Shown one piece after another: positions 15,591 to 36,250 of a stretch of 42,486 nt of DNA (position 1 is its first letter; every line of letters begins with the position of its first letter). A model generated the notes under the pieces. The model worked only from the letters and a program-made list of their open reading frames with translations, ran no database searches and was not told where the DNA came from. Source of the stretch: an uncultured Novosphingobium sp. (lineage in GTDB: Bacteria > Pseudomonadota > Alphaproteobacteria > Sphingomonadales > Sphingomonadaceae); NCBI GenBank assembly GCA_938005655.1, contig CALLNA010000284.1, positions 1 through 42,486 on the forward strand, in the 5' to 3' direction. The position numbers were made by a program, and so were the translations under genes.

Positions 15591-15636
15591 TTGATCTTGT
15601 TCTTGTATGAGTATATCCGGCATCCCATGCCGTCAA
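15591..15636. promoter_or_regulatory. Overlapping divergent promoters with a putative GntR/FadR operator (TTGTATGAGTA, 15603-15613)
   Basis: 55-bp divergent spacer; minus-strand TTGACG-N15-TATACT; plus-strand TTGATC...TATATC; TTGTATGA-type box; FadR gene in the locus. Confidence 0.5.
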
Positions 15637-17429: not shown

Positions 17430-17446
17430 CCGGAAAGACGACGACG

Positions 17447-17734
17447 ATGGACGCTCCGCTTTATCCCCCCGCCGCCCGCTTCGTGCAGCCGGTGCGGGTC
17501 GCCTATACGATCAGCACCAGCAACACGCCGATCGCCGAGCTGATGAAGATTCCCGCCGCCTGGGCGATCGTCGTCAAGGAGGTGCCGAACATCGAGGCGC
17601 GGCTGAGCGTGCCGATGCTGAAACCCCACCTCGGCAACTTCTCGCTGCGCTCGCTGGTCCAGTTCGGCTTCAGCACGGCCGAGCAGCTCGACCGCGTCGA
17701 CGCCCAGCTCAAGGCCCTGGGAGACGTGAAATGA
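17447..17734 (+). CDS. Small hypothetical protein (95 aa), stand-alone helical domain
   Basis: ATG 17447; stop overlaps the GH2 start (ATGA); resembles the N-terminal extra domain of the ThuA protein. Confidence 0.75.
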   Translation: MDAPLYPPAARFVQPVRVAYTISTSNTPIAELMKIPAAWAIVVKEVPNIEARLSVPMLKPHLGNFSLRSLVQFGFSTAEQLDRVDAQLKALGDVK

Positions 17735-20229
17735 CCGGCGCCGCCTTCACCCTCGACCGCCGCGAGGCGCTGACCCTGGCCGCCGGCGCCTCGCTCCTGC
17801 CGCTGGCAAGCGAAGCCCTGGCCGCCCCTAAGGCCGCATCGAGCCAGAGCGCGGAAGGCCCGCTCGCGGCCCGGCGCGACCAGCCGTTCAACCTCGGCTG
17901 GCGCTTCTTCCGCGGCGAGAGCCCCGGCGCCGAGCAGCCCGGCTTCGACGACGGCGCCTGGCGCGGCGTCGACCTGCCGCACGACTGGAGCATCGAGGAC
18001 GTTCCGGGCGGCACCACCGGCCCCTTCACCAAGGAGTCCAAGGGCGGCACCGCCACCGGCTTCACCGTCGGCGGCGAAGGCTGGTATCGCAAGCGTTTCC
18101 GCATCGATGGCCTGCCCGCCGGGGCGCGGGTCGAAATCCTGTTCGACGGAATCTATCTCGACAGCGAGGTCTGGCTGAACGGGCAGCGCGTAGGCGGCTG
18201 CGTCAACGGCTACCAGCCCTTCGCCTGCGACCTGACGCCCCACCTGCGCCGCGGCGAGGACAACGTGCTCGCGGTGCGCGTGCGCAACCTCGGCAAGAAC
18301 AGCCGCTGGTACGCGGGCTCGGGCATCTATCGCGAGGTGCGGATCGACGTCATGCCCCCCGGGGCCCGGCTCGCCCGCTGGGGCGTCGGCGCCTGGACCC
18401 GGCGGCTGGAAGGCGGCACGGCGAGCATGGACGTCGCCACCCGGATCGAGCAGGCCGACCCCGCACTCCAGCTCGTGACCCGCCTGCGCGACGCGAGCGG
18501 CAAGGTCGCCGCCGAGGCCGCCACGCCCGCCGCGGGCGAGGTCAGGCAAACGCTCTCAGTGCGCGCGCCGCGCTTGTGGTCGCCCGACGATCCGCAGCTC
18601 TACACCCTCGAGACCGAGCTGCGGCGCGGCGCGGCGGTGGTCGACCGCATCGCCCAGCCCTACGGCATCCGCATCGTCACCTTCGACGCGCGGAGCGGCA
18701 TGGCGATCAACGGCGCGCGCATCGTGCTGCGCGGCGGCTGCCTGCACCACGACAACGGCCTGCTCGGCGCCTGCGCCTTCCGCGACGCCGACGAGCGCCG
18801 CCTGCGCCTGCTCAAGGCGCGCGGCTTCAACGCGATCCGCAGCGCGCACAACATCGCCTCGCGCTCGCTGCGCGAGGCCTGCGACAGGCTCGGCATGCTG
18901 CTGATCGACGAGGCCTTCGACGCCTGGTTCTCGGCCAAGGAGCCCGAGGACTTCTCCGTCCACTTCCGCGACCACTGGCGGGAGGTGGTCGAGACCATGG
19001 TCCTCGCCGCGCGCAACAGCCCGAGCGTGATCCTGTGGAGCATCGGCAACGAGATTCCCCAGCGCGCCACCGACGAGGGCGTGGAATGGGAATGGAAGCT
19101 CGCCAACGCGATCAAGCGGATCGACCCGACCCGCCCCGTCACCGCCGGCCTCAACGGCCTGCTCGGCGCGCCGATGACCGCCGGGGCGGAGACCGCGCGG
19201 CCGGGCTTCGCCGGCAAGGTCGACAATGCCTCGGCAATCTTCCTCGACGTGCCGGGCTACAACTACCGCCTGGAGGACATCGAGCCCGAGGGGGCGACGC
19301 ATCCCGAGCGGGTTGTCTATGCTTCCGAGACGTTCCCCAAGGAGGCCTGGGACTATGCCCGGCTGACGGAAAACATGCCCGGCTTCCTCGGCGAGTTCCT
19401 GTGGACGGCGATGGACTATATCGGCGAGGCCGGGGTCGGCGCGGCGACCAACATCTCGGTCGGCGGCGTCGCCTACAACCTGCCGAGCTGGCCCTGGGTC
19501 AACGCCTGGTGCGGCGACGTCGACCTGATCGGCAACCAGAAGGCCCCGTCGCGCTATCGCGACGTGGTCTGGGGCCTGAGCCGGCTCGAAATGGCGGTCC
19601 AGCGCCCGGTGCCCGAGGGCAAGCGCGAGTTCATCTCGCAATGGGGCTGGTCCGACGAGCTCCAGAGCTGGAACTGGGCGGGCAGCGAGGGCAAGGCGCT
19701 GGCCGTGCGCCTCTACACCCCCGGCGACCGCATCGAGCTGCTGCTCAACGGCGCCAAGGTCGGCGAGCAGGCGCTGGCCGCCGCCGACAAGCTGCGCGCC
19801 GAGATAAAGGTGCCCTATGCCCCCGGCGTGCTCGAAGCCGTGGCCTACCAGGGCGGCCAGGTCATCGCCCGCAAGCGCCTGGAGACCGTCGGCGCCCCGG
19901 CGAAGCTGCGCCTCACCGCCGAGCGGACGAGCCTGCCCGGCGACCGGCAGTCGCTGGGCTACGTCCATGTCGAGATCGTCGACGCCCAGGGCCGTCCCCT
20001 GCCCGACGAGAAGCGCAAGGTGACGATGACTATCGACGGCCCCGCCGACCTCGCCGGCTTCGGCAGCGCCAACCCCTTCGCGGTCGGCTCGTTCCAGCAG
20101 CCGGAGGCCGAGACCTTCCACGGCCGCGCCCTCGCGATCCTGCGCGGCCGGAGCGCGAAGGGCGGCGTCCGCATCTCGGCCCGGGCCGAGGGGCTGGCGC
20201 CCGCCTCCACCCATCTCACCCTCATCTGA
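17731..20229 (+). CDS. Glycoside hydrolase family 2 (beta-galactosidase-like), Tat-exported
   Basis: Twin-arginine leader LDRREALTLAAG; LPHDWSI, SRWYAGSGIYR, GGCLHHDNG, NAIRSAHN, WSIGNE (acid/base), YASET, WTAMDYIGE. Confidence 0.92.
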   Translation: MTGAAFTLDRREALTLAAGASLLPLASEALAAPKAASSQSAEGPLAARRDQPFNLGWRFFRGESPGAEQPGFDDGAWRGVDLPHDWSIEDVPGGTTGPFTKESKGGTATGFTVGGEGWYRKRFRIDGLPAGARVEILFDGIYLDSEVWLNGQRVGGCVNGYQPFACDLTPHLRRGEDNVLAVRVRNLGKNSRWYAGSGIYREVRIDVMPPGARLARWGVGAWTRRLEGGTASMDVATRIEQADPALQLVTRLRDASGKVAAEAATPAAGEVRQTLSVRAPRLWSPDDPQLYTLETELRRGAAVVDRIAQPYGIRIVTFDARSGMAINGARIVLRGGCLHHDNGLLGACAFRDADERRLRLLKARGFNAIRSAHNIASRSLREACDRLGMLLIDEAFDAWFSAKEPEDFSVHFRDHWREVVETMVLAARNSPSVILWSIGNEIPQRATDEGVEWEWKLANAIKRIDPTRPVTAGLNGLLGAPMTAGAETARPGFAGKVDNASAIFLDVPGYNYRLEDIEPEGATHPERVVYASETFPKEAWDYARLTENMPGFLGEFLWTAMDYIGEAGVGAATNISVGGVAYNLPSWPWVNAWCGDVDLIGNQKAPSRYRDVVWGLSRLEMAVQRPVPEGKREFISQWGWSDELQSWNWAGSEGKALAVRLYTPGDRIELLLNGAKVGEQALAAADKLRAEIKVPYAPGVLEAVAYQGGQVIARKRLETVGAPAKLRLTAERTSLPGDRQSLGYVHVEIVDAQGRPLPDEKRKVTMTIDGPADLAGFGSANPFAVGSFQQPEAETFHGRALAILRGRSAKGGVRISARAEGLAPASTHLTLI

Positions 20230-20243
20230 CAGGTTAGCAGCGA

Positions 20244-21806
20244 ATGATCGACGGTTCGGTTCTCATCGGCTCCCAGGCCATCCGGCGCGAGGCCGCCTTC
20301 CACGCGGTCGATCCCGCGACGGGCGAGACGCTCCCGCAAGGTTTCGCCGAGGCAACGGCGGAGGATGTCGCGCGGGCCTGCGCGCTCGCCGCCGCGGCGG
20401 CCGACAGGTTCGGCGGGCTGGAGCCCCGCGCGCGCGGCGCCTTCATCGAAGCGGCGGCCGAGGCGATCCTGGCGATCGGCGACGTCCTAGTCGAGACCGC
20501 CATGTCCGAGACCGGCCTGCCCCGCGTCCGCCTCGAAGGGGAGCGGATGCGGACAGGCAACCAGCTCCGCATGTTCGCCGCCGAGCTGCGCGAGGGGCGC
20601 TGGCTCGACGCGACGATCGACCCCGCCCTGCCCGACCGCGCCCCGCCGCGCGCCGACCTCCGGCGGATGAACCTGCCGCTCGGCCCGGTCGCGGTGTTCG
20701 GAGCGTCGAACTTCCCGCTGGCCTTCTCGGTCGCGGGCGGCGACACCGCCGCGGCCTTCGCCGCCGGCTGCCCGGTCGTGGTCAAGGGCCATCCGGCCCA
20801 TCCCGGCACCGGCGAGCTGGTCGCCCGCGCCGTGCAGCGCGCCGTGGCCGAAGCCGGCCTGCCCGAGGGCGTGTTCTCCTACCTGCCGGGCCGCGCGAAC
20901 GCGCTCGGCGCGGCGCTGGTCGCCGATCCGCGGATCAAGGCGGTGGGCTTCACCGGCTCGCGCGCCGGCGGCCTCGCCCTGATGGACATCGCCGCGCGGC
21001 GGCCCGAGCCGATCCCGGTCTATGCCGAGATGAGCAGCATCAACCCGGTCGTCCTCATGCCCGCCGCCCTCGCCGCGCGGGCCGAGGCGCTGGGCGCGGC
21101 CTTCGTCGGCTCGCTGACGCTCGGCGCGGGGCAGTTCTGCACCAACCCCGGCCTGGTCCTCGCCGTCGAAGGCCCGGACCTCGACCGCTTCGCCGCCGCC
21201 GCTTCGGACGCCCTCGCCGGGATCGAGCCGCCGGCCATGCTGACGCCCGGCATCCACGCCGCCTGCGGCCGGGGCCTCGCCGCGCTGGAGACCCGTGCCG
21301 CCCGCCTCGCCACGGGCCAGGCGGCCAGCGGGCCCAACCGCTGCTCCGCCGCGATCTTCTCCGTCTCGGCCGAGGCCTTCATGGCTGATCCCGCCCTGGG
21401 CGAGGAGGTATTCGGCGCCGTCTCCCTGATCGTGCACTGCCGCGACCTGGCCGAGCTGGCCGAGGTCGTCGCCGGGCTCGAAGGCCAGCTCACCGCCTCG
21501 CTCCAGCTCGATCCCGCCGACGAAGGCGCGGCCGCCGCGATCCTGCCGCTGCTCCAGCAGAAGGCCGGCCGGGTCCTCGCCAACGGCTGGCCGACCGGGG
21601 TCGAGGTGACGCCCGCGATGGTCCACGGCGGGCCGTTACCGGCGACCTCGGACGGGCGCTCGACCTCGGTCGGCACCCTCGCCATGGCGCGCTTCCTGCG
21701 GCCGGTCTGCTGGCAGGACATCCCCGACGCCCTGCTGCCGCCGCCGCTCCAGGCCGCCAACCCGTGGCAGCTGCCGCGCCGGGTCGACGGGGAGTGGCAG
21801 GCATGA
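20244..21806 (+). CDS. NADP+-dependent aldehyde dehydrogenase, alpha-ketoglutaric semialdehyde dehydrogenase-like
   Basis: FGASNFPLAFSVAGGDTA, KGHPAHP, GFTGS, AEMSSINP, GQFCTNPG, EEVFG, NGWPTGVEV, HGGP. Confidence 0.9.
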   Translation: MIDGSVLIGSQAIRREAAFHAVDPATGETLPQGFAEATAEDVARACALAAAAADRFGGLEPRARGAFIEAAAEAILAIGDVLVETAMSETGLPRVRLEGERMRTGNQLRMFAAELREGRWLDATIDPALPDRAPPRADLRRMNLPLGPVAVFGASNFPLAFSVAGGDTAAAFAAGCPVVVKGHPAHPGTGELVARAVQRAVAEAGLPEGVFSYLPGRANALGAALVADPRIKAVGFTGSRAGGLALMDIAARRPEPIPVYAEMSSINPVVLMPAALAARAEALGAAFVGSLTLGAGQFCTNPGLVLAVEGPDLDRFAAAASDALAGIEPPAMLTPGIHAACGRGLAALETRAARLATGQAASGPNRCSAAIFSVSAEAFMADPALGEEVFGAVSLIVHCRDLAELAEVVAGLEGQLTASLQLDPADEGAAAAILPLLQQKAGRVLANGWPTGVEVTPAMVHGGPLPATSDGRSTSVGTLAMARFLRPVCWQDIPDALLPPPLQAANPWQLPRRVDGEWQA

Positions 21807-22783
21807 CGCGCTCGCTGCTCCAGTTCAAGCGCAACGGCGTGCGCGGGGTCGCCGCGCTCGACGCGCAAGGGCAGGCCTGGCTGGTCGAGGACGCGCCCTC
21901 GACGCTCGCCCTCGCCGCCGAGGCCCTGGCCACGGGCACCCCGCTGGCCGAGCTGGTGACGGAGCGCTGCCGGGAACGGCTCGATCTCGCCGAGGTTACG
22001 CTGCTCGTCCCGATCGACCATCCCGATCCGGCGCACCTGCTGGTCAGCGGCACCGGCCTCACCCACCTCGGCTCGGCCGAGGGCCGCGACAAGATGCACA
22101 AGGCCGCCGCGGCGGGCGAGAACCTCACCGATTCCATGCGGATGTTCCTGATGGGCCTCGACGGCGGCAAGCCCGCGCCGGGCGAAGCCGGGGTCGCGCC
22201 CGAATGGTTCTACAAGGGCGACGGCGCAATCCTGGTCGGCCCCGACCAGCCGCTGACCATGCCGCACTTCGCCGGCGACGGGGGCGAGGAGCCGGAGATC
22301 GCGGGCGTCTACCTGATCGATCCGCAGGGCCGCCCGGCGCGGATCGGCTTCGTCCTCGGCAACGAGTTCTCCGACCATGTGAGCGAGCGGGTCAACTACC
22401 TCTGGCTCGCCGGCTCCAAGCTGCGCCAAGCGGCGATCGGCCCCGAGCTGCTGCTCGGCGAACTGCCCGCCGACGTGCACGGCGTCAGCCGCATTCGGCG
22501 CGGCGACGCCGTGCTGTGGGAGAAGCCCTTCCTCTCGGGCGAGGCCAACATGTCGCACACGGTCGCCAACCTCGAGCACCACCACTTCAAGAACGAAGCC
22601 TTCCGCCGCCCCGGCGACCTGCACGTCCACTTCTTCGGCACGGCCACGCTCTCGTTCAGCGACGGGGTAGAGACGCGCGAGGGCGACCTGTTCGAGATCA
22701 TGGCCGACGCCTTCGCCCTGCCCTTGCGCAATCCGCTCGCCCGCGCTCCCGCCGAGCCGCCGGTCCAGGTCCGCGCGCTGTGA
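21803..22783 (+). CDS. araD1: AraD1/GguC FAH-family protein (putative 2-keto-3-deoxy-L-arabinonate dehydratase)
   Basis: SGTGLTHLGSA, TDSMRMF..GLDGGKP, PEWFYKG, GGEEPEI, GNEFSDH, SGEANMSH, HFFGTATLSF. Confidence 0.85.
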   Translation: MTRSLLQFKRNGVRGVAALDAQGQAWLVEDAPSTLALAAEALATGTPLAELVTERCRERLDLAEVTLLVPIDHPDPAHLLVSGTGLTHLGSAEGRDKMHKAAAAGENLTDSMRMFLMGLDGGKPAPGEAGVAPEWFYKGDGAILVGPDQPLTMPHFAGDGGEEPEIAGVYLIDPQGRPARIGFVLGNEFSDHVSERVNYLWLAGSKLRQAAIGPELLLGELPADVHGVSRIRRGDAVLWEKPFLSGEANMSHTVANLEHHHFKNEAFRRPGDLHVHFFGTATLSFSDGVETREGDLFEIMADAFALPLRNPLARAPAEPPVQVRAL

Positions 22784-23709
22784 GCGGGCCGCTGCGCCTC
22801 GGCATCGTCGGCTACGGCAAGATCGCGCAGGACCAGCACGTCCCGGCCATCGCCGGGAACGACGGGCTGGAGCTGGTCGCCGTCGCCAGCCGCCACAACC
22901 ATGCCCCCGGCCTGCCCAACTACGCCAGCCACCAGGAGATGCTCGCCACCGGGCCCGCGCTCGACGCCGTGGTGCTCTGCCAGCCGCCGCAGGCACGGTT
23001 CGAGGCGGCGCGCGACGCCCTGCTCGCGGGCAAGCACGTCTTCCTCGAAAAGCCGCCGGGCGCGAGCCTGTCCGAAGTCGAGGCGCTGATCGCCCTCGCC
23101 CGCCGGCAGGGGGTGGCCCTGTTCGCGAGCTGGCACTCGCGCTACGCCCGCTGCGTCCCGGCGGCGAAGCGCTGGCTGGCCGAACGCCGGATCGACCGGC
23201 TGACGATCACCTGGAAGGAGGACGTCCGCCACTGGCATCCGGGCCAGGAATGGATCTGGCAGCCCGGCGGCTTCGGGGTGTTCGATCCGGGCATCAACGC
23301 CCTCTCAATCCTCACCGAGATCGTTTCCGAGCCGATCCGGCTGATCGCCGCCGCGCTGGAGACGCCAGTGAACAGGCAGGCGCCGATCGCCGCGCGGCTG
23401 GAGCTGGCGACGGCGGACGGCGTCCCGATCGCCGCCGAGTTCGACTTCCGCCAGACCGGCCCGCAGAGCTGGGACATCGTGGTCGAGGCGGGCGGCGAGA
23501 CGCTCTGCCTGGGCCACGGCGGCAACAGCCTGAGCCTGGCCGGCGCGGGCGACGATGGCGACATCGACGGCGAATACCCGGCGCTGTACCGGCGCTTCGC
23601 CGCGCTCGTCCACGAGCGGGGCATCGACGTCGACCTCGCCCCGCTGCGACTGGTGGCCGATGCCTTCCTTCGCGGGCGCACTTGCCCTACCGACGCGTTC
23701 GAAGACTGA
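22780..23709 (+). CDS. Gfo/Idh/MocA oxidoreductase (D-galactose/L-arabinose 1-dehydrogenase-like)
   Basis: GTG start overlapping the upstream stop; GIVGYGKIAQDQH, LEKPPG, WKEDVRHWHPGQEWIW, GVFDPGINALS. Confidence 0.9.
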   Translation: MSGPLRLGIVGYGKIAQDQHVPAIAGNDGLELVAVASRHNHAPGLPNYASHQEMLATGPALDAVVLCQPPQARFEAARDALLAGKHVFLEKPPGASLSEVEALIALARRQGVALFASWHSRYARCVPAAKRWLAERRIDRLTITWKEDVRHWHPGQEWIWQPGGFGVFDPGINALSILTEIVSEPIRLIAAALETPVNRQAPIAARLELATADGVPIAAEFDFRQTGPQSWDIVVEAGGETLCLGHGGNSLSLAGAGDDGDIDGEYPALYRRFAALVHERGIDVDLAPLRLVADAFLRGRTCPTDAFED

Positions 23710-23722
23710 AAGGAGCATTCGA

Positions 23723-24442
23723 TTGGCGGAACGGGCGCGCGACGATCAGGGCCGGGCGCTGCGCATCCACCAGTCGCTCGCCCGCCAGCTCGGCACCGCG
23801 ATCCTGAGCGGCGAGTACCGGCCCGGCGACGTGCTAGGCGGCGAGATCGAGCAGTCGCTGGCGCTGGGCGTGTCGCGCACCCCCTATCGCGAGGCGATCC
23901 GCATCCTCGTCGCCAAGGGCCTGCTCGAAAGCCGGCCCAAGGCCGGGACCCACGTCACCCCGCGCGAGCGCTGGAACCTGCTCGATCCCGAGGTGCTGGC
24001 CTGGATGTTCACCGGCACCCCGGACCCCGCCTTCATCCGCGACCTGTTCGAGCTGCGCGGCCTGCTGGAGCCCGCCGCCGCGCGCCTCGCGGCCGAGCGG
24101 CGCAGCCCGGAACAACTGTCGGAAATGGCTGCCGCGCTCGCCGCCATGCGCGACCACGGCCTCGCCACGGACGAGGGCCGGGCGGCGGACCAGCGGTTCC
24201 ACCGCGCGATCCTGGCGGCCTCGGGCAACCTCGCCCTCGCCTCGCTGGCCAGCTCGGTCGGTGCGGCCGTGCAATGGACGACGCATTTCAAGCAGCGCGC
24301 CAGCAAGCGCCCGCGCGATCCGCAGCCCGACCACGAAGCCGTCTATGACGCCATCGCCGCCGCCGACCCCGGCCGCGCCGATCGAGCGATGACCGACCTC
24401 CTGCGCCTCGCCTTCGAGGACACGGCGGCCGCGCTGCCCTAG
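23723..24442 (+). CDS. FadR/GntR-family transcriptional regulator
   Basis: AAGGAG RBS then TTG; wHTH GVSRTPYREAIRILVAKGLLESRPKAGT; FCD domain WNLLDP, ELRGLLEP, DQRFH. Confidence 0.92.
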   Translation: MAERARDDQGRALRIHQSLARQLGTAILSGEYRPGDVLGGEIEQSLALGVSRTPYREAIRILVAKGLLESRPKAGTHVTPRERWNLLDPEVLAWMFTGTPDPAFIRDLFELRGLLEPAAARLAAERRSPEQLSEMAAALAAMRDHGLATDEGRAADQRFHRAILAASGNLALASLASSVGAAVQWTTHFKQRASKRPRDPQPDHEAVYDAIAAADPGRADRAMTDLLRLAFEDTAAALP

Positions 24443-24578: not shown

Positions 24579-25610
24579 ATGAAACCTGCCCGGCTTTCAT
24601 CGATCGCGCTCTGCCTCATTCTCCACGCTCCGGCCCTGGCGGAAGGGCTGGCCCCGACCTTCATCGAGACCGCGCCCACGGGCCACCAGAAGGTCTGGCA
24701 CGCGACGCTCGACCTGCGGGACCTGCCGCCGGACAGCCGCCCCTCCGCCATCGGCGCCGGAATCGACGCGCGCGGCCTGCCGCCGGGCGTCAGGGGGCCG
24801 CTGCGCGTCACCATCGCCATCAACGGCGTGGTCGCCGGACAGCGGACGATCGAGCCCGGCACGACCACCCGGATCGAGACCACGGTCGAGGATCGGCTCC
24901 TTTCCACCCGCAACCGCGTTTCCGTCGCCGTCACCGCGCTCGCGCAGTCCTGTCCGGCGGCGGCCTGCGACCTGACCGGCATCGCCCTCACCGGCCCGAT
25001 CGACTACGCGCTGGACGCAGCGGCGGCCCGGCCGGAGAGCTTCGCCCACTATGTCACGCGCTTCCGCCGGGGCGTCGCCCTCGAGGTGGCCGAGGCGCGC
25101 GATCGCCCGCTCGGCGCGATGGCGCTGGCGGCGATCGCTCCGCGCGCGCCGCTACGGCCCGAGGGGCCGTACGAGATCGTCGTCAGCCGCGACCTGCCAG
25201 CGGGGGCGCAGGCGCCGGTCCGCTTCGACACCGGCCCGGTCGGAATCGCGGATCGCGACGGCCGGGTGCTCTACGACCGCGCGGCGCTCGACCGCCTCAC
25301 ACTGGTCCAGCTCGCCCGGCGAGGAGACCGCGCGCTGCTCTGGGTGCGGCCGGGAACCGACGCCCTGCCTGCCGGGCCGCTCCAGCTCGACTACGGCGAC
25401 GTCGCCCTGTTCGGCACGCAGGGCCGCGAAATCGCCTTCGCCGCGGGCCGCGATCACGCCGTGACCGTGGCCTACGCCGCCCATGCCCTGCGCGAGGCAC
25501 GCACCGCCCTCTACTGGCGGCTGGCGGTCGCGGCCGTCTGGCTGGCGGCGAGCCTGGGCTTCGTCCTCGTCCTGCGGCGGATGGCGCCGCCCCGGCCGGC
25601 GGCGGCCTGA
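24579..25610 (+). CDS. Periplasmic protein with C-terminal membrane anchor (BcsB-like co-polymerase candidate)
   Basis: Signal peptide; beta-sandwich-like segment (VTIAINGVV...LLSTRNRVSV...C..AAC); single C-terminal TM followed by RR; first gene of a coupled operon with a GT2. Confidence 0.6.
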   Translation: MKPARLSSIALCLILHAPALAEGLAPTFIETAPTGHQKVWHATLDLRDLPPDSRPSAIGAGIDARGLPPGVRGPLRVTIAINGVVAGQRTIEPGTTTRIETTVEDRLLSTRNRVSVAVTALAQSCPAAACDLTGIALTGPIDYALDAAAARPESFAHYVTRFRRGVALEVAEARDRPLGAMALAAIAPRAPLRPEGPYEIVVSRDLPAGAQAPVRFDTGPVGIADRDGRVLYDRAALDRLTLVQLARRGDRALLWVRPGTDALPAGPLQLDYGDVALFGTQGREIAFAAGRDHAVTVAYAAHALREARTALYWRLAVAAVWLAASLGFVLVLRRMAPPRPAAA

Positions 25611-25613
25611 GCC

Positions 25614-27503
25614 ATGGGCGTCCTCTCCCCCAGCGACATCTGGACCGGCGACTACCTGGTCGAGAACGGCTTGATCTCGCTCCCCCAGCTCGACGAGGCG
25701 AGCGACCTCGCCGAGCAGTGGGACAGCTCGCTGTCCGACGTGCTGATGTCGCGCCGCTGGGTGCGCCCGATCGACTACTACCGCGCCCTGGCCGACCGCT
25801 TCGGCATCGATTTCGTGGACCTGCGCGCCGATCCGCCCGACCCGGCGGTGCTCTCTGAGGACGAGGTCGAGCGCTACGCCCGCGAGTTGACCCTGCCGTG
25901 GAAGCGGCGCGGCAACCGCCTGGTGATCGCCACGGCGCGCCCCGGCCCGGAGGCGATCCTCTATGCGCGCAGCCGCTGGGGCAGCGAGATCGACATCGTC
26001 CTGACCGCCAAGTTCGACATCCTCTGGTCGCTCCAGCGCATCTTCGGCGACGCCCATTCGCGCCGCGCGGTCCACGAGCTGGCCGAGCTCGACCCCGAGA
26101 TGTCGGCCCGCACGGTCTTCACCCGGTCGCAGATCCTGGTTGCCTGGGCGATGCTCACGGCCTTCTGCCTGGGGCTCTGCCTGGCTCCGGTCGCGACCCT
26201 GATCGCGCTCAACGCGGTCATGGGGCTGTTCTACCTCGGCAACTTCGTCTTCAAGGGAATCCTCGTCTGGTTCGGCGCTCGCCGCCAGCAGGACAACGCC
26301 ACGGCGCTCGACGCCGAGGTCAGGCTGCTGCGCGACGAGGACCTGCCGACCTTCACCATTCTCGTGCCGATGTTCAAGGAGCCGGAGGTTCTGCCGATCC
26401 TGGCCGGGGCGCTGCGCCGGCTCGACTATCCGCAGGCCAAGCTCGACATCAAGATCGTGCTCGAGGAAGGCGACCACGAGACGATCGAGGCGGCCAAGGC
26501 CCTGGGCCTGGAAGGCATCTTCGAGATCGTCCGGGTGCCCGCCTCGCAGCCGCAGACCAAGCCCAAGGCCTGCAACTACGCGCTGCGCTATGCCCGCGGC
26601 GACTACCTCGTGATCTACGACGCCGAGGACCAGCCCGAGCCCGACCAGCTCAAGAAGGTGGTCGTCGCCTTCCGCCAGTCGCCGGACAACACCGCCTGCA
26701 TCCAGTGCCGGCTCAACTACTACAACGCCGAGGAGAACTGGCTGACCCGCCTGTTCACGCTCGACTACTCGCTGTGGTTCGACCTGATGCTGCCCGGGCT
26801 GGAGCGGCTGCGGATACCGATCCCGCTGGGCGGCACCTCGAACCACTTCAAGACCGGGGTGCTGCGCGAGCTGCGCGCCTGGGACCCGTTCAACGTGACC
26901 GAGGACGCCGACCTCGGCATCCGCATGACCCAGAAGGGCTACCGCGTCGGGGTGATCGACGCGACGACCTTCGAGGAAGCCAACGTCTCGCAGTCCAACT
27001 GGGTCCGCCAGCGCTCGCGCTGGATCAAGGGCTACATGCAGACCTTCCTGGTCCATACCCGCCGCCCGATTCACCTGGTGCGGACGATCGGGCCGCTGGG
27101 GACGCTGGGCTTCATCTTCTTCATCGGCGGGACCATGCTGTCGGGCCTGCTCAACCCGCTGTTCTGGGCCATCTTCGGCTTCTGGGCGGTGACGCAGACC
27201 AGCGGCTTCGACATCGTCTTCCCGCCGCTGCTGCTCTACATGGCGCTGTTCAACCTGATCCTCGGCAACGGGATGTTCGTCTACCTGATGATGCTGGCTC
27301 CGTTCCGGCGGCGCTGGCTCAGCCTGGTGCCGTTCAGCCTGACGGTGATCTGGTACTGGGCGCTAATGTCGGTCGCCGCCTGGAAGGGCCTGTGGCAGCT
27401 CGTCACCAAGCCCTTCTACTGGGAGAAGACCCACCACGGGCTGTCGAAGTTCACCGCCGGAGAGGTGGCCGAGGCGCTGCGGCCGGAGCAGGCCCCGGCA
27501 TGA
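25614..27503 (+). CDS. Processive GT2 glycosyltransferase with N-terminal MshEN/T2SSE_N-like domain
   Basis: N-terminal GDYLVENGLI...LSDVLM...ALADRFGIDFVDL; LVPMFKE, TKPKACN, YDAED (DxD), GGTSNHF, TEDAD, QRSRW (QxxRW), C-terminal TMs, WEKTHH. Confidence 0.9.
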   Translation: MGVLSPSDIWTGDYLVENGLISLPQLDEASDLAEQWDSSLSDVLMSRRWVRPIDYYRALADRFGIDFVDLRADPPDPAVLSEDEVERYARELTLPWKRRGNRLVIATARPGPEAILYARSRWGSEIDIVLTAKFDILWSLQRIFGDAHSRRAVHELAELDPEMSARTVFTRSQILVAWAMLTAFCLGLCLAPVATLIALNAVMGLFYLGNFVFKGILVWFGARRQQDNATALDAEVRLLRDEDLPTFTILVPMFKEPEVLPILAGALRRLDYPQAKLDIKIVLEEGDHETIEAAKALGLEGIFEIVRVPASQPQTKPKACNYALRYARGDYLVIYDAEDQPEPDQLKKVVVAFRQSPDNTACIQCRLNYYNAEENWLTRLFTLDYSLWFDLMLPGLERLRIPIPLGGTSNHFKTGVLRELRAWDPFNVTEDADLGIRMTQKGYRVGVIDATTFEEANVSQSNWVRQRSRWIKGYMQTFLVHTRRPIHLVRTIGPLGTLGFIFFIGGTMLSGLLNPLFWAIFGFWAVTQTSGFDIVFPPLLLYMALFNLILGNGMFVYLMMLAPFRRRWLSLVPFSLTVIWYWALMSVAAWKGLWQLVTKPFYWEKTHHGLSKFTAGEVAEALRPEQAPA

Positions 27504-29035
27504 GCGCGGTCGCCGCCACCCTGCCGGGGATCGCCCTCCCACGGCCCACCCTTCCCGAGCGCGTCCGCCCGCGCGGCGCGGCAACCTCGCCGCTCGCGCT
27601 CGCCGTGCTGTTCGGCCTGCTGTTCGCCGTGGCGGCGCTCGGCATGATCCGTGAGACCGGCCCCTTCGCTGGCTGGCAGCCGACGTCGGGCGCCCTGGTC
27701 GGCCGCGTCCTGCTCGGGGCCGACGGCAAGATGACCGTGGGCGAACTGATCGCCGCCTATCCGCCGCTGGCGGTCCTGCCGATGATCGGCCTGCGCGCGC
27801 CCGCGGTGCTGATCGGCGTCACCACGGGCGAGCTGTTCTCCGCCCTGCTCGGCGGCGCCCTTGCCGGACTGTGGCTGGCGAGCCTGCTCCAGGCGGGCTA
27901 TCGCCGCGGCACGGCGCTGGTCCTCGCCGCGCTGCTCGTCGGCAACCCGCTGTTCCTCGGCGCGCTCGCCGCCGGGCCGGAGACCGCGCTCGCGCTGCTC
28001 GGCGCCTGGGTCTTCGCGATGGGCGCCTTCACCCTGCGCAGCCGGGGCAGCGTGAACGACCTCATCACCTGCTCGGGCGCGCTGGCGCTGCTGTTCTTCG
28101 CCGGGCCGCTGGGCGGCGCCTTCGCCTGCGCGACGCTGCCGTTCCTGCTGCTGCTCAAGCCCGCGGACATCCCCGCGCGGAGCGCGCCCTCCATCTACCT
28201 GGTGCTGCTGTTCCCGGTGATCTTCGGCCTGGCCGGCTTCGTCTTCGTCAACTGGATGATGCTGCACGACGCCTTCGGCTTCCTCCACTCCGATATCGAC
28301 CTCGCCACGCGCCGGATCGGCCAGTCGTGGCGGACGCCGGTCATCCCCGTGCTGTTCGCCGTCGCCTGCGCCCCGGCGCTGGTCGCGCTGTTCGTCGTCG
28401 CGCGCGGCCGCCGTCCGCTCCAGGCGGTCGCCTCGGCCCTGCTCGGCACCCTGCTGCTGGCGGTGACGCTCGCCCTGCAAAGCGGCGCCTGCCGCTCGCC
28501 GGTCGAGGCGCTCTGCCCGGCCGTGTCGCTCGCCGCCGCGGCGGCGATGCGCTGGCCGCCGCAACGCTCGCGCCCGCTCCGGGTCGCGCTGCTGCTCGCG
28601 CTGAGCCTGACCGGCGGCCTTTCGGCGCTACTCACCCAGGGGCGAATCTCGCCGGAGACGGGGGCGACGGCCGCCGCCAGCGAGTTCACCGGCCTGCGCC
28701 GCAGCATCGCCGAGCAGGCGCTCGGCCGGTTCCTCGCGGGCCGGTCGGACGTGCTGATCGACGCCGCCGCCCACCCCGCGGTCGTCGCCGCGCGCGGCGG
28801 CGCCGAGGGGCTGGTGACGGGCAACGACACCGCCTTCGCCCTGGCGCTGCTGCGCAAGCGGATCGCCACACGCGCCGTCGCCGTGGCCGCCGCCGATCCC
28901 TCCCGCACTGAGGACGCGCTCAGCCGCAACCTGCCCGACCTGTACGCCTCCGGCGCGCCGGGCCTGCACCTGATCTACGATCGGGACGGGTGGCGCGTCT
29001 GGAGCCGGGACAACAAGGAAGACCCGAGGCCATGA
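27500..29035 (+). CDS. Polytopic inner-membrane protein, GT-C/ArnT-like fold candidate
   Basis: About 11-12 hydrophobic helices, YPPL in the first loop, soluble C-terminal domain ending LIYDRDGWRVW; ATGA overlaps on both sides. Confidence 0.65.
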   Translation: MSAVAATLPGIALPRPTLPERVRPRGAATSPLALAVLFGLLFAVAALGMIRETGPFAGWQPTSGALVGRVLLGADGKMTVGELIAAYPPLAVLPMIGLRAPAVLIGVTTGELFSALLGGALAGLWLASLLQAGYRRGTALVLAALLVGNPLFLGALAAGPETALALLGAWVFAMGAFTLRSRGSVNDLITCSGALALLFFAGPLGGAFACATLPFLLLLKPADIPARSAPSIYLVLLFPVIFGLAGFVFVNWMMLHDAFGFLHSDIDLATRRIGQSWRTPVIPVLFAVACAPALVALFVVARGRRPLQAVASALLGTLLLAVTLALQSGACRSPVEALCPAVSLAAAAAMRWPPQRSRPLRVALLLALSLTGGLSALLTQGRISPETGATAAASEFTGLRRSIAEQALGRFLAGRSDVLIDAAAHPAVVAARGGAEGLVTGNDTAFALALLRKRIATRAVAVAAADPSRTEDALSRNLPDLYASGAPGLHLIYDRDGWRVWSRDNKEDPRP

Positions 29036-30006
29036 GCCAATCCCCGAGCATTCTGGTCGTCGACGACGACGACAACGCGGCGAACATGCTCTCGCTGCTC
29101 CTCTCGGCCGGCAACTTCGAGCGGATCACGCTCGCCGCCAATGCCGACGAGGCCTTCGAGCTGCTCGACCTCGCCGACGACGCGGAAGGCGCGCCGCCGC
29201 GCTTCGACGTCATCATGCTCGACGTGATGATGCCCGAGACCGACGGGATCGAGGCCTGCGCCCGCATCCGCGCAACGCGGCGCTACCGCGACGTGCCGAT
29301 CCTGATGTGCACCGGCATGGACGAGACCGAGCTGCTCAACCAGGCCTTCATCGCCGGCGCCAACGACTACCTGACCAAGCCGGTGAGGAAGATCGAGTTC
29401 CTCGCCCGCGTCCATTCGGCGATGCGGCTCAAGCGCGAGCTGGACCGCCGCCGCGCGCGCGAGGTCGAGCTGCGCAAGGCGCGGACCTGGAACGAGGTCG
29501 ACGACGACAGGTACTTCGACCGCGTCACCGGCCTGCCCTGCCAGGAGGCGTTCAACGCCCACGTCCGCCGCGCCGCGGACCGCGACACCCCGCACGGGAT
29601 GCTCGCGCTCCAGGTCGCCCAGGCGGCGCAATACCGCGAGGAGGCCGGCGAGGCCGCGTTCCAGGCGATGATCCGCCAGGTCGCGGCGGCGATGGCCGAG
29701 GTCCCCGCGGCGCTGCCTTGGCGGATCTTCACCTTCGGCGACGGCCTGTTCGTGGTCTTCGCGCCCAACGCCAGCCCCGAGGAGCTGGCGCGGGTCGGCG
29801 AATATGCCCGAATCGCGGTCGACGCGCTCAGGCTGCCCCACGGCCATTCCGCCGAATCCGATCACATCGCCCTCGTCACCGCCGCCGCCTGGGGACGCGG
29901 CACCGACCTGCTCACCATGCCCGCCGAGCTGATCCGCGCGCTCGACCGCCCGGCCCCATCGCCCGCGCCCGCCATCGGACCCGGCCCAGGAAGGATCGCC
30001 GCATGA
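29032..30006 (+). CDS. Response regulator: REC + degenerate GGDEF-like domain
   Basis: ILVVDDD, MLDVMMP, GANDYLTKP; linker then DRVTGLP; FGDGLF in place of GGDEF; LPH..S..DHI as in PleD/WspR-type C-termini. Confidence 0.82.
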   Translation: MSQSPSILVVDDDDNAANMLSLLLSAGNFERITLAANADEAFELLDLADDAEGAPPRFDVIMLDVMMPETDGIEACARIRATRRYRDVPILMCTGMDETELLNQAFIAGANDYLTKPVRKIEFLARVHSAMRLKRELDRRRAREVELRKARTWNEVDDDRYFDRVTGLPCQEAFNAHVRRAADRDTPHGMLALQVAQAAQYREEAGEAAFQAMIRQVAAAMAEVPAALPWRIFTFGDGLFVVFAPNASPEELARVGEYARIAVDALRLPHGHSAESDHIALVTAAAWGRGTDLLTMPAELIRALDRPAPSPAPAIGPGPGRIAA

Positions 30007-30806
30007 GAAACCTCGCCCCCATCCTCGCCACTACCGCCGCCGCCGCGCTGCTCGGCGGCGGCCTTGCCGCGCCGGCCCACGCCGCCGCCTGGACGCAGCC
30101 CCAGGGCAGCGGCCAGGTCATCGTCACCGGCATCGTCTCGGACAGCGCCAAGGGGTTCGACGCGAACGGGAACACGGTCGACATCAACGACTACGACAAG
30201 GGCGAGGCCTATGCCCTGATCGAATACGGCGTCACCGACGACCTGACCGTGATGGCGATCCCGAGCTTCAGCGACGTCCAGGTCGAGAACGGCGGCCGGA
30301 CCACGGGCCTCGGCTATACCGAACTGGGCGCGCGCTACCGCATCGCAGCGGGCGGTGGCGCGGTCGTCTCGCTCCAAGGCTCGGTCCGCATCCCCGGGGA
30401 AAAGCGCCGCGACGGCGTGCCCCAGGCCGATGCGACCGGCTCCGAGATCGACCTGCGTGCCCTCGCCGGGACCAGCTTCAAGCTGGGCGGCAAGGACAGC
30501 TTCGTCGACGCCCAGGCCGGCTACCGCATCCGCAACGGCGCCCCGCCCAACGAATTCCGCCTGGACCTGACCCTGGGCCTGCGCCCGGCCCCCAAGGTGC
30601 TGCTACTGCTCCAGTCGTTCAACGTCGTATCCGACGGCGATGGCCGCGGCGCCTTCACCCGCTATCGCTACAGCAACCTCTACGGCAGCGTGGTCTATGA
30701 CGTGACCCCGAAGTGGTCGCTGCAAGCCGGCCTGCTCGGCACGATCGCCGGCCGCAACGCCCTGCGCGAACGCGGCGTGATCCTCGGCCTGTGGCGGCGG
30801 TTCTAG
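30003..30806 (+). CDS. Predicted outer-membrane beta-barrel protein
   Basis: Signal peptide ending AHA; alternating amphipathic strands (IEYGVTDDLTV, ELGARY, DAQAGY, DLTLG, WSLQAG); C-terminal GLWRRF with terminal Phe. Confidence 0.75.
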   Translation: MRNLAPILATTAAAALLGGGLAAPAHAAAWTQPQGSGQVIVTGIVSDSAKGFDANGNTVDINDYDKGEAYALIEYGVTDDLTVMAIPSFSDVQVENGGRTTGLGYTELGARYRIAAGGGAVVSLQGSVRIPGEKRRDGVPQADATGSEIDLRALAGTSFKLGGKDSFVDAQAGYRIRNGAPPNEFRLDLTLGLRPAPKVLLLLQSFNVVSDGDGRGAFTRYRYSNLYGSVVYDVTPKWSLQAGLLGTIAGRNALRERGVILGLWRRF

Positions 30807-30815: not shown

Positions 30816-31025
30816 GGAAACATCGTCACCGACCTCCTCATCCCCACACCATCGTCAAGGTCCTGCTCTTTGCGCGCAACGCCGGAAGGGAAAGCGGGAC
30901 CCCGGATCAAGTCCGGGGTGACGAAGGGCAGGAAGGTCCGCGATCGGGCCGTATCCGGGAAGCCCGGTTTGGCATGTCGAGGCCGGGAGCGGGTCTTCCT
31001 ATCCGCCCGCGACTCCGCCCCCGCT
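30816..31025. repeat. Copy A of a REP/MITE-like palindromic element (left arm deleted, inner segment inverted relative to copy C)
   Basis: acctcctcatccccacaccatcgtca at 30832 matches 32406; 30879-30924 is the reverse complement of 32425-32470 with one mismatch. Confidence 0.75.
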
Positions 31026-32155: not shown

Positions 32156-32322
32156 GGAGGTCATCACGAACCTCCTCAGCCCCACCCCTTTCGTCGCCCC
32201 GGACTTGATCCGGGGCGACGAAAGGGCGGCAACGTCTGCTAACCCGATCGCATCCGGAACGGCGGCATTTCGGGGCAGGCCTGTTCCGCTATGCACCGAT
32301 AGCGCTCAACCGCGCCGCACCC
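32156..32322. repeat. Copy B of the palindromic element, collapsed to one perfect hairpin
   Basis: ccctttcgtcgccccgga-cttga-tccggggcgacgaaaggg (32186-32226, 18-bp stem); flanks align with copy C. Confidence 0.8.
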
Positions 32323-32390: not shown

Positions 32391-32610
32391 GGAAGGCCAT
32401 CGCCAACCTCCTCATCCCGCACCATCGTCACCCCGGACTTGATCCGGGGTCCCGCTTTCCTTTCCGGCGTCGCGCCTGAAGCAGCGGGGTCCCGGATCAA
32501 GTCCGGGGCGACGATGGATGGGGAGGTCCGCAACCGGATTGCATCCGGAATGCGGCTTTTGGGGCAAGGCTGTCCCGCTATCCGCCGATGCTCCTCGACC
32601 GCGCCGCGCC
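32391..32610. repeat. Copy C (most complete) of the palindromic element, with two inverted CCCCGGACTTGATCCGGGG-type units
   Basis: catcgtcaccccggacttgatccgggg (32423-32449) ... cccggatcaagtccggggcgacgatg (32491-32516). Confidence 0.8.
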
Positions 32611-34057: not shown

Positions 34058-35443
34058 CTAGACCAACCCGCGGTTGAGCGCTTCGAGCGCCGCCGCCGTC
34101 GCGGCGCGGGAGGGGCCGGCCGGGCCGGCCGCGCCGGGTCCGGAGGCCGCGCGCGCGATCGGACCCACGACCTGCGGCGTTGTCCGGCCGCAGGGGCAGC
34201 GGCCCCACGAGACCGTCACCAGGTCGGCGGTCACGACGCCGCCCCAATAGGTCTGCGCGGTCAGGTCGAAGAAGCCCGCGCGGCCCGCTTGCCGACCGCG
34301 CCGGGGCAGCAGCGCGCCGGAACCCTCGACGAACACCAGCGGCACGATCCACGGCCAGATGTGGAAACACCCCTGCTCGCAGGAGCCGAAGGCGTCGCCG
34401 ATCTCGGTCATCCCGTAGGCCTCGTAGATCGTGTCCACGCCGCCGAACCGCTTGATCGCGCCGATCATGCCGTCCGGCGCGGCGAGGCCCTTGGTGCCGC
34501 CGCCGGTGCTGATCCGGCTGCCCGGCGGCAGGCCGGGCGCCATGCCTATCCGCAGCCCCGCCGTCGCCACCTGATGCAGCAGGAGCGGGCCGCCGGCCAT
34601 GTGGACGGGCGCGTCCTGCAACTCGTCGCGGACGATCTCCAGCACGGCGCGGATGCGCTCGTCGTAGGAGGCCTGGGCCGCGACGGCCTCCTCCTGGCGC
34701 GCCTGGATATAGGGGGTGAGCCGGGGCGGCGGGACGCCCAGCCGCTCGGCCGCCATGACCCGGCCGATGTAGTGCTGCCAGTCGGTGCTGGCGCGCATCG
34801 GCAGCAGAGGGAGGAAGCGCGTGGTCGGCGTCGTGTAGTTCTCCCGCAGCATGGCCGCCGAGCGCAACATGCCCGAGCGTCCGTCCGCATAGCTGAGCCA
34901 AAGCATCGAGGCACGGTGGTCGATCGCGCGCACCGGCGCGGGCGCCCCGGGGCTCTGCCACTCGACCAGCGAGCGTTGCCGCAGCAGCTCGCTCTCCCGC
35001 TTGCCGCGCGGGATCAGCGAGAGCGCCTCGGTCGTGCCCGAACTCGTCAGCAGCGCCAGCCCGGTCTCCGCGTCGAGCGCGTCGAGCCAACGACCGATCG
35101 CCCCGAACCGCCGACCCTTCACCGCCGCCAGATCGACCAGCGTCAGGCGCGACAGCCACTCCGTCAGCGCCGGGAAGCCCAGCTCGTCGAACAGGCGATA
35201 CGAATAACTTTTGAAAAGCTGATGCGGGAACATCAGCGCGGCGACATCCTCGAGCCGCCCGATCTCCCGCACCCCCGCCGCATCGGCCAGAACCGCCAGC
35301 GGCACGATCGCATCCCGCATCGCCCCGAACCGCTGCCCAACCGCCTCCAATTGCAGAGCCTGCTGCTGCTCGATCGGCATGTGGTGCACGAAGAGCGAAT
35401 TATCGACAAAGAACCGGACCGGATCGTCCGCAAAGTATGCCAT
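34058..35443 (-). CDS. LuxE/PaaK-like acyl-adenylating enzyme (acyl-protein synthetase-like)
   Basis: LTSSGTT loop, TGGGTKG, YGMTE, VVTADLV, CPCGR; preceded by an AT-rich promoter-like region. Confidence 0.65.
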   Translation of the reverse strand: MAYFADDPVRFFVDNSLFVHHMPIEQQQALQLEAVGQRFGAMRDAIVPLAVLADAAGVREIGRLEDVAALMFPHQLFKSYSYRLFDELGFPALTEWLSRLTLVDLAAVKGRRFGAIGRWLDALDAETGLALLTSSGTTEALSLIPRGKRESELLRQRSLVEWQSPGAPAPVRAIDHRASMLWLSYADGRSGMLRSAAMLRENYTTPTTRFLPLLPMRASTDWQHYIGRVMAAERLGVPPPRLTPYIQARQEEAVAAQASYDERIRAVLEIVRDELQDAPVHMAGGPLLLHQVATAGLRIGMAPGLPPGSRISTGGGTKGLAAPDGMIGAIKRFGGVDTIYEAYGMTEIGDAFGSCEQGCFHIWPWIVPLVFVEGSGALLPRRGRQAGRAGFFDLTAQTYWGGVVTADLVTVSWGRCPCGRTTPQVVGPIARAASGPGAAGPAGPSRAATAAALEALNRGLV

Positions 35444-35825: not shown

Positions 35826-36248
35826 TTAGTAATAATATCCTTGCCGAAAGGCCAGAACGCTTTCCACGGGCACATCGCCTTTGTCTTTAGCCAAGGGCGC
35901 GTAGATGCTCACCCCGAGTTGATATGCTATGGCGCCATCGACCTCGATCTCCACATGCTTGTCCATTGCCGCCAATTTCGCAATCGCTTGTTCAAAGGAA
36001 AGGCTCATGAGTTCAATGCCGTCGACAGATGGCTTTGCAGGAGCGGCAAACTCGATCGCTTCTAGAAGCCCGGCAGCGTCGTAATAGAAAAATGCGCTCA
36101 GCGAGGGAAAGTAATCGCAAGGGTGCGCCGCTTGAGCGGAGCGTTTGAATGATTGAAAATCCGCATGTACCTGAGCGCGCACCACCTCAGGCGACATGCC
36201 AAATTCTATTTCTCCGACGCCTTTCAGCGGATGGATTTCATAGTTCAT
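35826..36248 (-). CDS. Putative cognate immunity protein (140 aa)
   Basis: Starts 2 nt after the toxin stop; small, acidic/aromatic, lower GC; N-terminus IHPLKGVGEIEFGMS. Confidence 0.75.
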   Translation of the reverse strand: MNYEIHPLKGVGEIEFGMSPEVVRAQVHADFQSFKRSAQAAHPCDYFPSLSAFFYYDAAGLLEAIEFAAPAKPSVDGIELMSLSFEQAIAKLAAMDKHVEIEVDGAIAYQLGVSIYAPLAKDKGDVPVESVLAFRQGYYY

Positions 36249-36250
36249 CG

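What the first reader, a model, noticed from the sequence alone, without database searches (positions are those of the whole stretch)
24579..30806. Five-gene operon resembling an undescribed synthase-dependent exopolysaccharide system
Seen: five same-strand genes joined by a 3-nt gap and three ATGA overlaps. They encode a signal-peptide protein with a C-terminal TM anchor, a processive GT2 (DxD, TED, QRSRW), a polytopic GT-C-like protein, a REC/pseudo-GGDEF protein and a beta-barrel ending in Phe. Known: cellulose (BcsA/B/C), Pel, PNAG and NfrB-type systems combine a GT2 synthase, a periplasmic partner, an outer-membrane pore and c-di-GMP control. Inference: this set could make, modify and export a polymer, but it fits none of those layouts. 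No C-terminal PilZ on the synthase, no TPR scaffold and no hydrolase or deacetylase were recognised, and the GspE/MshEN-like domain is N-terminal.
Basis: partly seen in the sequence, partly recalled or inferred. Interest (0 to 1): 0.85.

Follow-up and report, generated by a model that had tools for sequence, protein, structure and literature searches.

The report
Stripped-down Xag-type sugar-polymer export operon
These five genes are a real, conserved, pared-down copy of an already named bacterial slime-polymer system (xag/sfz) that likely makes and secretes a beta-mannan-like sugar chain, and this version has halved its helper subunit and likely traded c-di-GMP sensing for phosphorylation control.

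Summary
The five genes, their junctions and motifs are as described. The same order recurs in 27 of 80 GTDB loci, and the three-gene core in 66 of 80. The system is not undescribed. One locus is the published bcsB-xagBCD cluster of Ferriphaselus R-1 (GT2 52% identical), of the xag/sfz family. Xanthomonas genes themselves were not compared. Earlier scan notes found this family on other DNA.

Gene 1 is a half-size, single-repeat BcsB homologue; gene 3 has a GT-C fold; gene 5 is a COG4313-type barrel.

Polymer: GH113 beta-mannanase genes lie beside 28 of 80 loci, against 1 of 60 relatives lacking the synthase. ManC (9 of 84) was the only recurring donor gene; WecB and GalU were found in none. A beta-1,4-mannan or glucomannan is therefore likely (about 0.55). 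That would answer the open question of the Xag polymer, but it is untested, and no GH113 was found in this 63%-complete genome.

This lineage has a decayed c-di-GMP site in MshEN (4 of 12 key residues), a REC/pseudo-GGDEF gene gained once in Alphaproteobacteria, and no acidic residue at the inferred GT-C catalytic site. Verdict: new variant of a known kind.

The parts
24579..25610 (+). Gene A: half-size BcsB-like co-polymerase (signal peptide, one CBD plus one flavodoxin-like domain, C-terminal TM anchor); homologue of sfz1 / bcsB-like CDS9
   Evidence: AF2 pLDDT 94. Foldseek top hits are BcsB, E 2.4e-8. VIA Z 8.3 to BcsB 366-724, 257 aligned, rmsd 5.4, tied with CBMs. Matches only the C-terminal half of the long homologues, 42 of 50 of which hit PF03170. 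hhalign to the R-1 protein 425-744: probability 96.9. No remnant of the N-terminal half upstream.
25614..27503 (+). Gene B: processive GT2 synthase (XagB/Sfz2 type) with N-terminal MshEN domain and no PilZ
   Evidence: Pfam/NCBIfam; motifs; 52% identical over residues 9-629 to the Ferriphaselus R-1 xagB-like protein. BcsA and NfrB lie far outside the clade.
25641..25799 (+). Degenerate MshEN c-di-GMP motif (residues 10-62): RLG replaced by WTG and by SLS, both Gln lost
   Evidence: 4 of 12 key positions kept; key residues taken from PMC5013675 passages.
27500..29035 (+). Gene C: GT-C-fold membrane protein (XagC/Sfz3 type) with a C-terminal periplasmic domain; no acidic residue at the inferred EL1 catalytic site in this copy
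   Evidence: AF2 pLDDT 89. ArnT Z 16.4, rmsd 6.1, 400 aligned; the top 20 rows are all GT-C or GT-C-fold. Atlas neighbours are PMT_2 clusters. Site counts.
29032..30006 (+). Gene D: response regulator, intact REC (D64, K116) plus catalytically dead GGDEF-fold domain
   Evidence: D64 and K116 in 39 of 39; GG[DE]EF in 0 of 39. One gain and one loss on the GT2 tree.
30003..30806 (+). Gene E: outer-membrane beta-barrel of the COG4313 / Phenol_MetA_deg (PF13557) kind; candidate export pore
   Evidence: 6 of 37 aligned members hit PF13557; profile hits PDB 4RL8, E 4.2e-5; Atlas TM 0.85 to a PF13557 cluster.

Best explanation
The five genes form a xag/sfz-family operon whose GT2 synthase likely polymerises GDP-mannose into a beta-1,4-mannan or glucomannan and would thread it through the inner membrane, with the half-size BcsB protein likely guiding it in the periplasm and the small barrel likely passing it through the outer membrane. 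Shown: gene set, order, folds and family membership via the R-1 locus. Inferred: polymer synthesis, from the processive motifs and the BcsB partner; mannose, from recurrent GH113 and ManC neighbours. The GT-C-fold protein is an almost constant partner. In this lineage it likely acts as a structural subunit rather than a side-chain transferase. The MshEN domain has likely lost c-di-GMP binding. Control is likely by phosphorylation of the REC/pseudo-GGDEF protein, which in relatives sits with an Hpt-like gene and sometimes a hybrid kinase. Whether it docks on the synthase is untested.
For: Order A-B-C-D-E in 27 of 80 loci; A, B and C together in 66 of 80. L052 is Ferriphaselus R-1 with a cyc2-like CxxCH gene upstream, matching Kato's cyc2-bcsB-xagB-xagC-xagD table; its xagD-like gene is GH113. 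GH113 lies in 28 of 80 loci and elsewhere in 13 of 50 further genomes, against 1 of 60 relatives without the GT2. In the genus: 3 of 8 GT2-positive against 1 of 368 GT2-negative genomes; conservatively 2 of 8, and kin are not independent. Both catalytic Glu are kept (29 and 28 of 31), and the only PDB matches are beta-1,4-mannanases. ManC or its cupin domain lies in 9 of 84 loci across four phyla; WecB, GalU, Ugd, Gmd, WecA and GtrA in 0 of 84. A phosphomannose isomerase adjoins sfz (PMC8250860). Xanthomonas xag-dependent biofilm is dispersed by a beta-1,4-mannanase and the polymer is uncharacterised. G000 has ManC and PMM.
Against: No GH113 in G000 (63% complete), nor in three close relatives at 90-100% completeness (G301, G420, G409). 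37 of the 50 genomes searched also have none. ManC is not adjacent here, and 75 of 84 loci lack it. GH113 specificity rests on characterised Bacillales-type enzymes only about 30% identical; a paper reads a GH113-linked clostridial operon as ManNAc. The MshEN score does not differ overall between loci with and without gene D (38 vs 35, p=0.96), because the motif also decayed in lineages without D. No Hpt or kinase gene is adjacent here. The barrel is missing from 32 of 80 loci, and this barrel family is known for small-molecule uptake (recalled). Xanthomonas sequences were not compared directly.
Confidence: 0.55

Rival explanations
1. The same xag/sfz machine makes a glucan (cellulose-like or mixed-linkage) from UDP-glucose, and GH113/ManC are accessory or act on a mannosyl decoration added by gene C.
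For: BcsB-type partner; the closest solved GT2 is BcsA. A housekeeping GalU (present in G000) need not be adjacent. Gene C keeps an acidic residue at the inferred site in 9 of 9 gamma/beta/delta and 12 of 13 Xanthobacteraceae-group loci.
Against: CelA model only 48.7 bits against a cut-off of 699; no BcsZ or BcsC match in 84 loci. GH113 structures are endo-mannanases, which cut backbones. No lipid-donor genes recur.
Confidence: 0.17
2. The polymer is an N-acetylmannosamine glycan, like E. coli NfrB/NGR or Listeria Pss (the latter recalled, not tested).
For: NfrB also carries MshEN. A C. difficile BcsA/B + GH113 + WecB operon was proposed to make a ManNAc polymer (PMC7710045 passage).
Against: WecB in 0 of 84 loci and not found in G000 with the E. 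coli query (genome incomplete). NfrB matches mainly through MshEN. No deacetylase among the recurring neighbours examined.
Confidence: 0.08
3. B makes a short or lipid-linked manno-oligosaccharide that the GT-C protein transfers to a surface protein or lipid, so no free polymer is secreted.
For: C accompanies B in 76 of 80 loci; no separate lipid-donor gene recurs; D421 (66 of 67) and D472 (58 of 68) are conserved in C's periplasmic domain; a Geobacillus orthologue is annotated GT39.
Against: BcsB-like partner in 68 of 80 loci and an endo-hydrolase point to a long chain; B has QxxRW and several C-terminal TM segments; xag mutants lose EPS and biofilm.
Confidence: 0.1
4. This reduced copy (half BcsB, no Hpt, no GH113, dead sensor) is decaying and no longer makes a polymer.
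For: Several losses relative to sister loci; the GT2 is in only 8 of 376 genomes of the genus.
Against: All five frames are intact; the same reduced form recurs intact in L002, L003, L096 and L097 with GT2 83-85% identical; 15 further half-size homologues at 46-61% identity.
Confidence: 0.07

Closest known systems
bcsB-xagBCD / sfb1-4 of Ferriphaselus and sfz1-6 of Mariprofundus (Kato 2015, PMC4643136; Koeksoy 2021, PMC8250860; passages and one section read)
   Same: BcsB-like, then GT2 with N-terminal T2SSE/MshEN domain, then a ~500-aa membrane protein, in the same order. B is 52% and C 25% identical to the R-1 proteins; A matches the C-terminal half.
   Different: A is half-size; no xagD/sfz4 hydrolase or CotH (sfz6) here; MshEN is 4 of 12 against 10 of 12 in R-1; REC/pseudo-GGDEF added. 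Sfz4 was published as GH10; the R-1 homologue scores as GH113.
xagABCD of Xanthomonas (Tao 2010 not held; PMC3609779, PMC3528676, PMC8042644, PMC3826837 passages)
   Same: Linked by Kato's statement that CDS10-12 resemble xagBCD, and by JGI naming two family members 'glycosyltransferase XagB'. Required for biofilm; polymer uncharacterised.
   Different: Sequences not compared here; XagA's identity is unresolved; reported control is transcriptional (Clp, c-di-GMP).
BcsA-BcsB cellulose synthase
   Same: Processive GT2 plus periplasmic CBD/flavodoxin-like partner with a C-terminal anchor.
   Different: No PilZ, no BcsC/TPR, no BcsZ; GT2 far outside; single-repeat BcsB; GT-C-fold partner.
NfrB-NfrA (N4 glycan receptor) of E. 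coli
   Same: GT2 fused to MshEN plus an outer-membrane pore.
   Different: MshEN is C-terminal in NfrB; the catalytic domains barely match; no NfrA or WecB in 84 loci.
Listeria Pss and Bacillus subtilis Yda systems (recalled, not tested)
   Same: GT2 + BcsB-like + degenerate GGDEF protein.
   Different: There the degenerate GGDEF is a c-di-GMP receptor and a deacetylase is present (recalled); sequences not compared.

Membership tests
xag/sfz (bcsB-xagBCD) | GT2 with N-terminal T2SSE/MshEN domain orthologous to XagB-like CDS10/Sfz2 | tested here: met
   52% identity over full length to the R-1 protein; grouped with R-1 and Mariprofundus proteins in a 50-row clade, SH-aLRT 97 (quick tree)
xag/sfz (bcsB-xagBCD) | BcsB-like gene directly upstream | tested here: met
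   but only the C-terminal repeat is present
xag/sfz (bcsB-xagBCD) | XagC/Sfz3 membrane protein directly downstream | tested here: met
   25% identity over 39-505, E 8e-22, to the R-1 gene
xag/sfz (bcsB-xagBCD) | XagD/Sfz4 glycoside hydrolase in the cluster | tested here: not met
   None in the window and none found in G000, 63% complete. Present beside 28 of 80 relatives, so treated as accessory.
xag/sfz (bcsB-xagBCD) | Direct orthology to Xanthomonas XagA-D | not tested
   No named Xanthomonas record was reached; the link is through PMC4643136, whose supplement could not be read
Cellulose synthase BcsA | C-terminal PilZ (RxxxR, DxSxxG) and CelA family score | tested here: not met
   TIGR03030 48.7 bits against a cut-off of 699
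NfrB | C-terminal MshEN, family score, NfrA/WecB context | tested here: not met
   NF008411 13.7 bits against 1170
MshEN c-di-GMP receptor | Tandem RLGxxL...LxxxLxxQ motifs | tested here: not met
   4 of 12 key positions; binding itself not measured
GT-C glycosyltransferases | GT-C fold | tested here: met
   ArnT Z 16.4, rmsd 6.1, 400 aligned; top 20 rows all GT-C fold. Foldseek best E 5e-3, same families.
GT-C glycosyltransferases | Catalytic acidic residue at the start of external loop 1 | tested here: inconclusive
   Absent in this copy and in 14 of 17 of its subclade; present in 9 of 9 gamma/beta/delta and 12 of 13 Xanthobacteraceae-group. The site was placed by sequence analogy to E. coli ArnT, not by superposition.
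Diguanylate cyclase | GG[DE]EF active site | tested here: not met
   0 of 39
COG4313 / PF13557 barrel | Family match | tested here: met
   Via homologues and structure; the window protein alone has no Pfam hit

The most novel reading that the evidence does not exclude
The xag/sfz family is a bacterial processive beta-1,4-mannan synthase system, the unidentified polymer behind Xanthomonas mannanase-sensitive biofilms and candidate iron-oxidiser stalks. This Sphingomonad lineage is its minimal form: a single-repeat BcsB, a GT-C fold turned scaffold, a small COG4313 barrel used for polymer export, and a phosphorylated pseudo-GGDEF switch that replaced c-di-GMP sensing by MshEN.
Probability: 0.3. 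Interest if true: 0.8.

Novelty: new variant of a known kind. Interest (0 to 1): 0.5.

Why it matters
A 2019 review (PMC8042644) says the nature of the Xag polymer remains to be established. My searches of the held library (listings only unless named as read) showed no biochemical study of XagB and no bacterial BcsB-linked mannan synthase; most subscription papers are not held. The GH113/ManC pattern turns that gap into one assay: GDP-mannose incorporation by a two- or three-subunit complex. If true, it gives a bacterial counterpart of plant mannan synthases and a substrate for the biofilm-dispersing mannanase. It also gives a candidate chemistry for iron-oxidiser stalks. This copy adds a natural half-size BcsB, which is convenient for reconstitution, and a possible case of regulatory replacement.

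Tried and rejected
Complex prediction of B with A: no verdict (0.51 against a control at 0.42), not used. Sequencing runs: no RNA holder listed. Metagenome scan with the half-size A alignment gave one 2-kb fragment. Profile searches of PDB sequences with the A and C alignments found nothing significant; hhalign of A6 to E. coli BcsB was weak (probability 17), so the BcsB link rests on Pfam hits of homologues and the fold search. No Pfam family for C in 50 members. No sigma-70-like promoter on the + strand and no clear terminator after gene E. Half-size A as a frameshift artefact: rejected (signal peptide, no upstream remnant, many equal-length homologues); L029 and L057 are split full-length genes and were not counted as half-size. 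A general rule 'gene D replaces MshEN': not supported across all loci (p=0.96); it fits only within the alphaproteobacterial clade. 'GT-C family wholly dead': rejected after clade-wise counts. Dow 2003 was not held under the id tried; Tao 2010 was not read. The Kato supplement could not be read and may hold the Xanthomonas identities. The tree is the quick search, not the finished careful one.
Full report
Observation. The five ORFs, the 3-nt gap and the three ATGA overlaps are as reported. The GT2 has DAED(336), TED(429) and QRSRW(466), no PilZ motif, and an N-terminal MshEN domain. Base composition matches the flanking genes. The window is contig C284 of G000, 63% complete. The nearest named GT2 relatives are Sphingomonadaceae.

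Conservation. A GTDB scan kept the best 80 of 593 stretches encoding relatives, so these are a biased top sample. With profiles built partly from these loci: C 76, A 68, E 48, true D orthologues 40, of 80. A-B-C-D-E lie in order in 27, and A, B and C occur together in 66; several loci are cut by contig ends. The core reaches Gamma/Betaproteobacteria, Bacteroidota, Chloroflexota, Aquificota, cyanobacteria and a Geobacillus plasmid. It is patchy: 0 of 60 drawn relatives and 8 of 376 genomes of the genus, G000 included.

Identity. An earlier scan note gave the xag/sfz lead; I checked it. Locus L052 is Ferriphaselus sp. R-1. It has a CxxCH-bearing cyc2-like gene upstream of A-B-C-hydrolase, the order of DM08DRAFT_00346-00350 in Kato 2015 (passages). 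B is 52% and C 25% identical; A aligns to the C-terminal half. Koeksoy 2021 names these sfb1-4 and sfz1-6 (passages and section 17). The link to Xanthomonas xagBCD is those authors' statement plus two JGI names among 120 listed hits; I did not compare Xanthomonas sequences.

Gene A. Of the best 150 profile hits, most are 540-820 aa and match A only in their C-terminal half. Of 67 proteins scanned, the 17 short top hits had no BcsB hit and 42 of the other 50 did. The model (pLDDT 94) finds BcsB first in Foldseek (E 2.4e-8). In VIA it aligns 257 residues to BcsB 366-724 at Z 8.3, tied with CBM domains. The half-size form occurs in the window, L002, L003, L007, L009, L096 and L097 with no N-terminal remnant, nested among full-length forms. 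I infer loss of the first repeat.

Gene C. The model (pLDDT 89) has the GT-C fold: ArnT Z 16.4, and the top 20 rows are all GT-C fold, including the GPI transamidase subunit at Z 13.3 (its being non-catalytic is recalled). At the inferred catalytic site in external loop 1, an acidic residue is present in 9 of 9 gamma/beta/delta, 12 of 13 Xanthobacteraceae-group, 3 of 7 Roseobacter-group, 1 of 3 Azospirillaceae, 0 of 2 Amorphus/Aurantimonas, 11 of 26 others and 3 of 17 of the window's subclade; the window has none. D421 and D472 in the periplasmic domain are conserved. GtrA was found in 0 and GtrB/ArnC (partial) in 1 of 84 loci. So C may branch the chain in some lineages and is probably structural here.

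Genes D and E. D keeps the phospho-acceptor D64 in 39 of 39 and GG[DE]EF in 0 of 39. On a quick tree of 81 GT2 rows it needs two changes: 38 of a 39-row alphaproteobacterial clade, SH-aLRT 100. An Hpt-like gene lies just upstream of the operon in 27 of the 40 D-bearing loci (Pfam Hpt confirmed for L010 only), but not here or in the closest relatives. MshEN key residues (PMC5013675 passages) number 9-11 of 12 in the related gamma/beta/delta loci, 9 in basal Azospirillaceae, 6-8 in the Xanthobacteraceae group and 3-5 in the window's subclade (7 in L019); the window has 4. That fits decay after gain of D. Against a general rule: scores with and without D do not differ (p=0.96), since Acetobacteraceae, Bacteroidota and Thermostichus lost the motif without D. 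E belongs to the PF13557/4RL8 barrel kind; export through it is inferred from context alone.

Which polymer. GH113 genes sit in 28 of 80 loci: co-oriented after C in Gamma/Betaproteobacteria and Verrucomicrobia, mostly convergent after E in Alphaproteobacteria. Of the 52 loci without one, 50 genomes were searched (L063 and L066 left out); 13 have GH113 elsewhere. Background is 1 of 60 relatives. In the genus, 4 of 376 genomes have GH113, three of them among the 8 GT2 carriers. Two of the four hits lie in frames of about 1000 aa and may be unrelated TIM-barrel proteins, leaving 2 of 8 against 1 of 368. Both glutamates are kept, and the PDB matches are all beta-1,4-mannanases. Of 24 E. coli sugar-pathway and export queries against 84 loci, only ManC recurred (9: five full-length and adjacent, three cupin-only, one 9 kb away); WecB, GalU, Ugd, Gmd, BcsC, BcsZ and NfrA gave none, and six other queries one locus each. 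Published context agrees: a phosphomannose isomerase adjoins sfz, and in X. campestris a beta-1,4-mannanase disperses biofilm that needs the uncharacterised xag polymer. Against: no GH113 in G000 or in three close, nearly complete relatives. A GH113-linked clostridial operon was read as ManNAc because it also holds WecB.

Verdict. A real, conserved operon; a reduced alphaproteobacterial variant of the xag/sfz family (about 0.9). It most likely makes a beta-mannan-type exopolysaccharide (about 0.55), with phosphorylation rather than direct c-di-GMP control in this lineage (about 0.5). It is not categorically new, and the scan has met the family repeatedly. The half-size BcsB was not found in the scan's notes by one word search. 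Interest 0.5, mainly because the polymer question becomes directly testable.

Noticed in passing
window 35826-42376 (- strand): A 2041-aa or longer Rhs-repeat ORF followed by a 140-aa ORF without a Pfam hit, in a lower-GC stretch (55-60% against 70%): looks like a polymorphic interbacterial toxin with its immunity gene.
   Followed up: no
window 30874-30927, 32186-32226, 32415-32524: Copies of an imperfect palindromic intergenic repeat (54-nt arms, 94% complementary) flank the OmpA gene; REP/MITE-like.
   Followed up: partly
window 10745-24442: Sugar catabolism cluster upstream of the operon: KDPG aldolase, DGOK, gluconolactonase, MFS, dehydratase, GH2, aldehyde dehydrogenase, Gfo/Idh/MocA, GntR. 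The four upstream genes tested had no match in the related loci, so the cluster is probably unrelated.
   Followed up: partly
window 2917-10350 (- strand): Response regulator, LysM-FecR, CHASE2 kinase and GGDEF-EAL genes in a row; not linked to the operon by any test.
   Followed up: no
L035, L041, L042, L043, L046, L048: Gammaproteobacterial versions continue GH113 - barrel-like gene - CotH kinase, with a TLC ATP/ADP transporter in three of them, as in the sfz neighbourhood.
   Followed up: partly
L019 9579-11995: Phenylobacterium locus has the Hpt-like gene directly before the GT2 and no BcsB-like gene in the fetched stretch.
   Followed up: no
L052 13413-14645: The xagD/sfb4 homologue, whose Zetaproteobacterial counterpart was published as GH10, scores as GH113 (128 bits).
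   Followed up: yes
window 34058-35443 (- strand): 461-aa ORF without a Pfam hit, next to an Abhydrolase_10 gene; by eye resembles a LuxE-like acyl-protein synthetase (recalled, untested).
   Followed up: no
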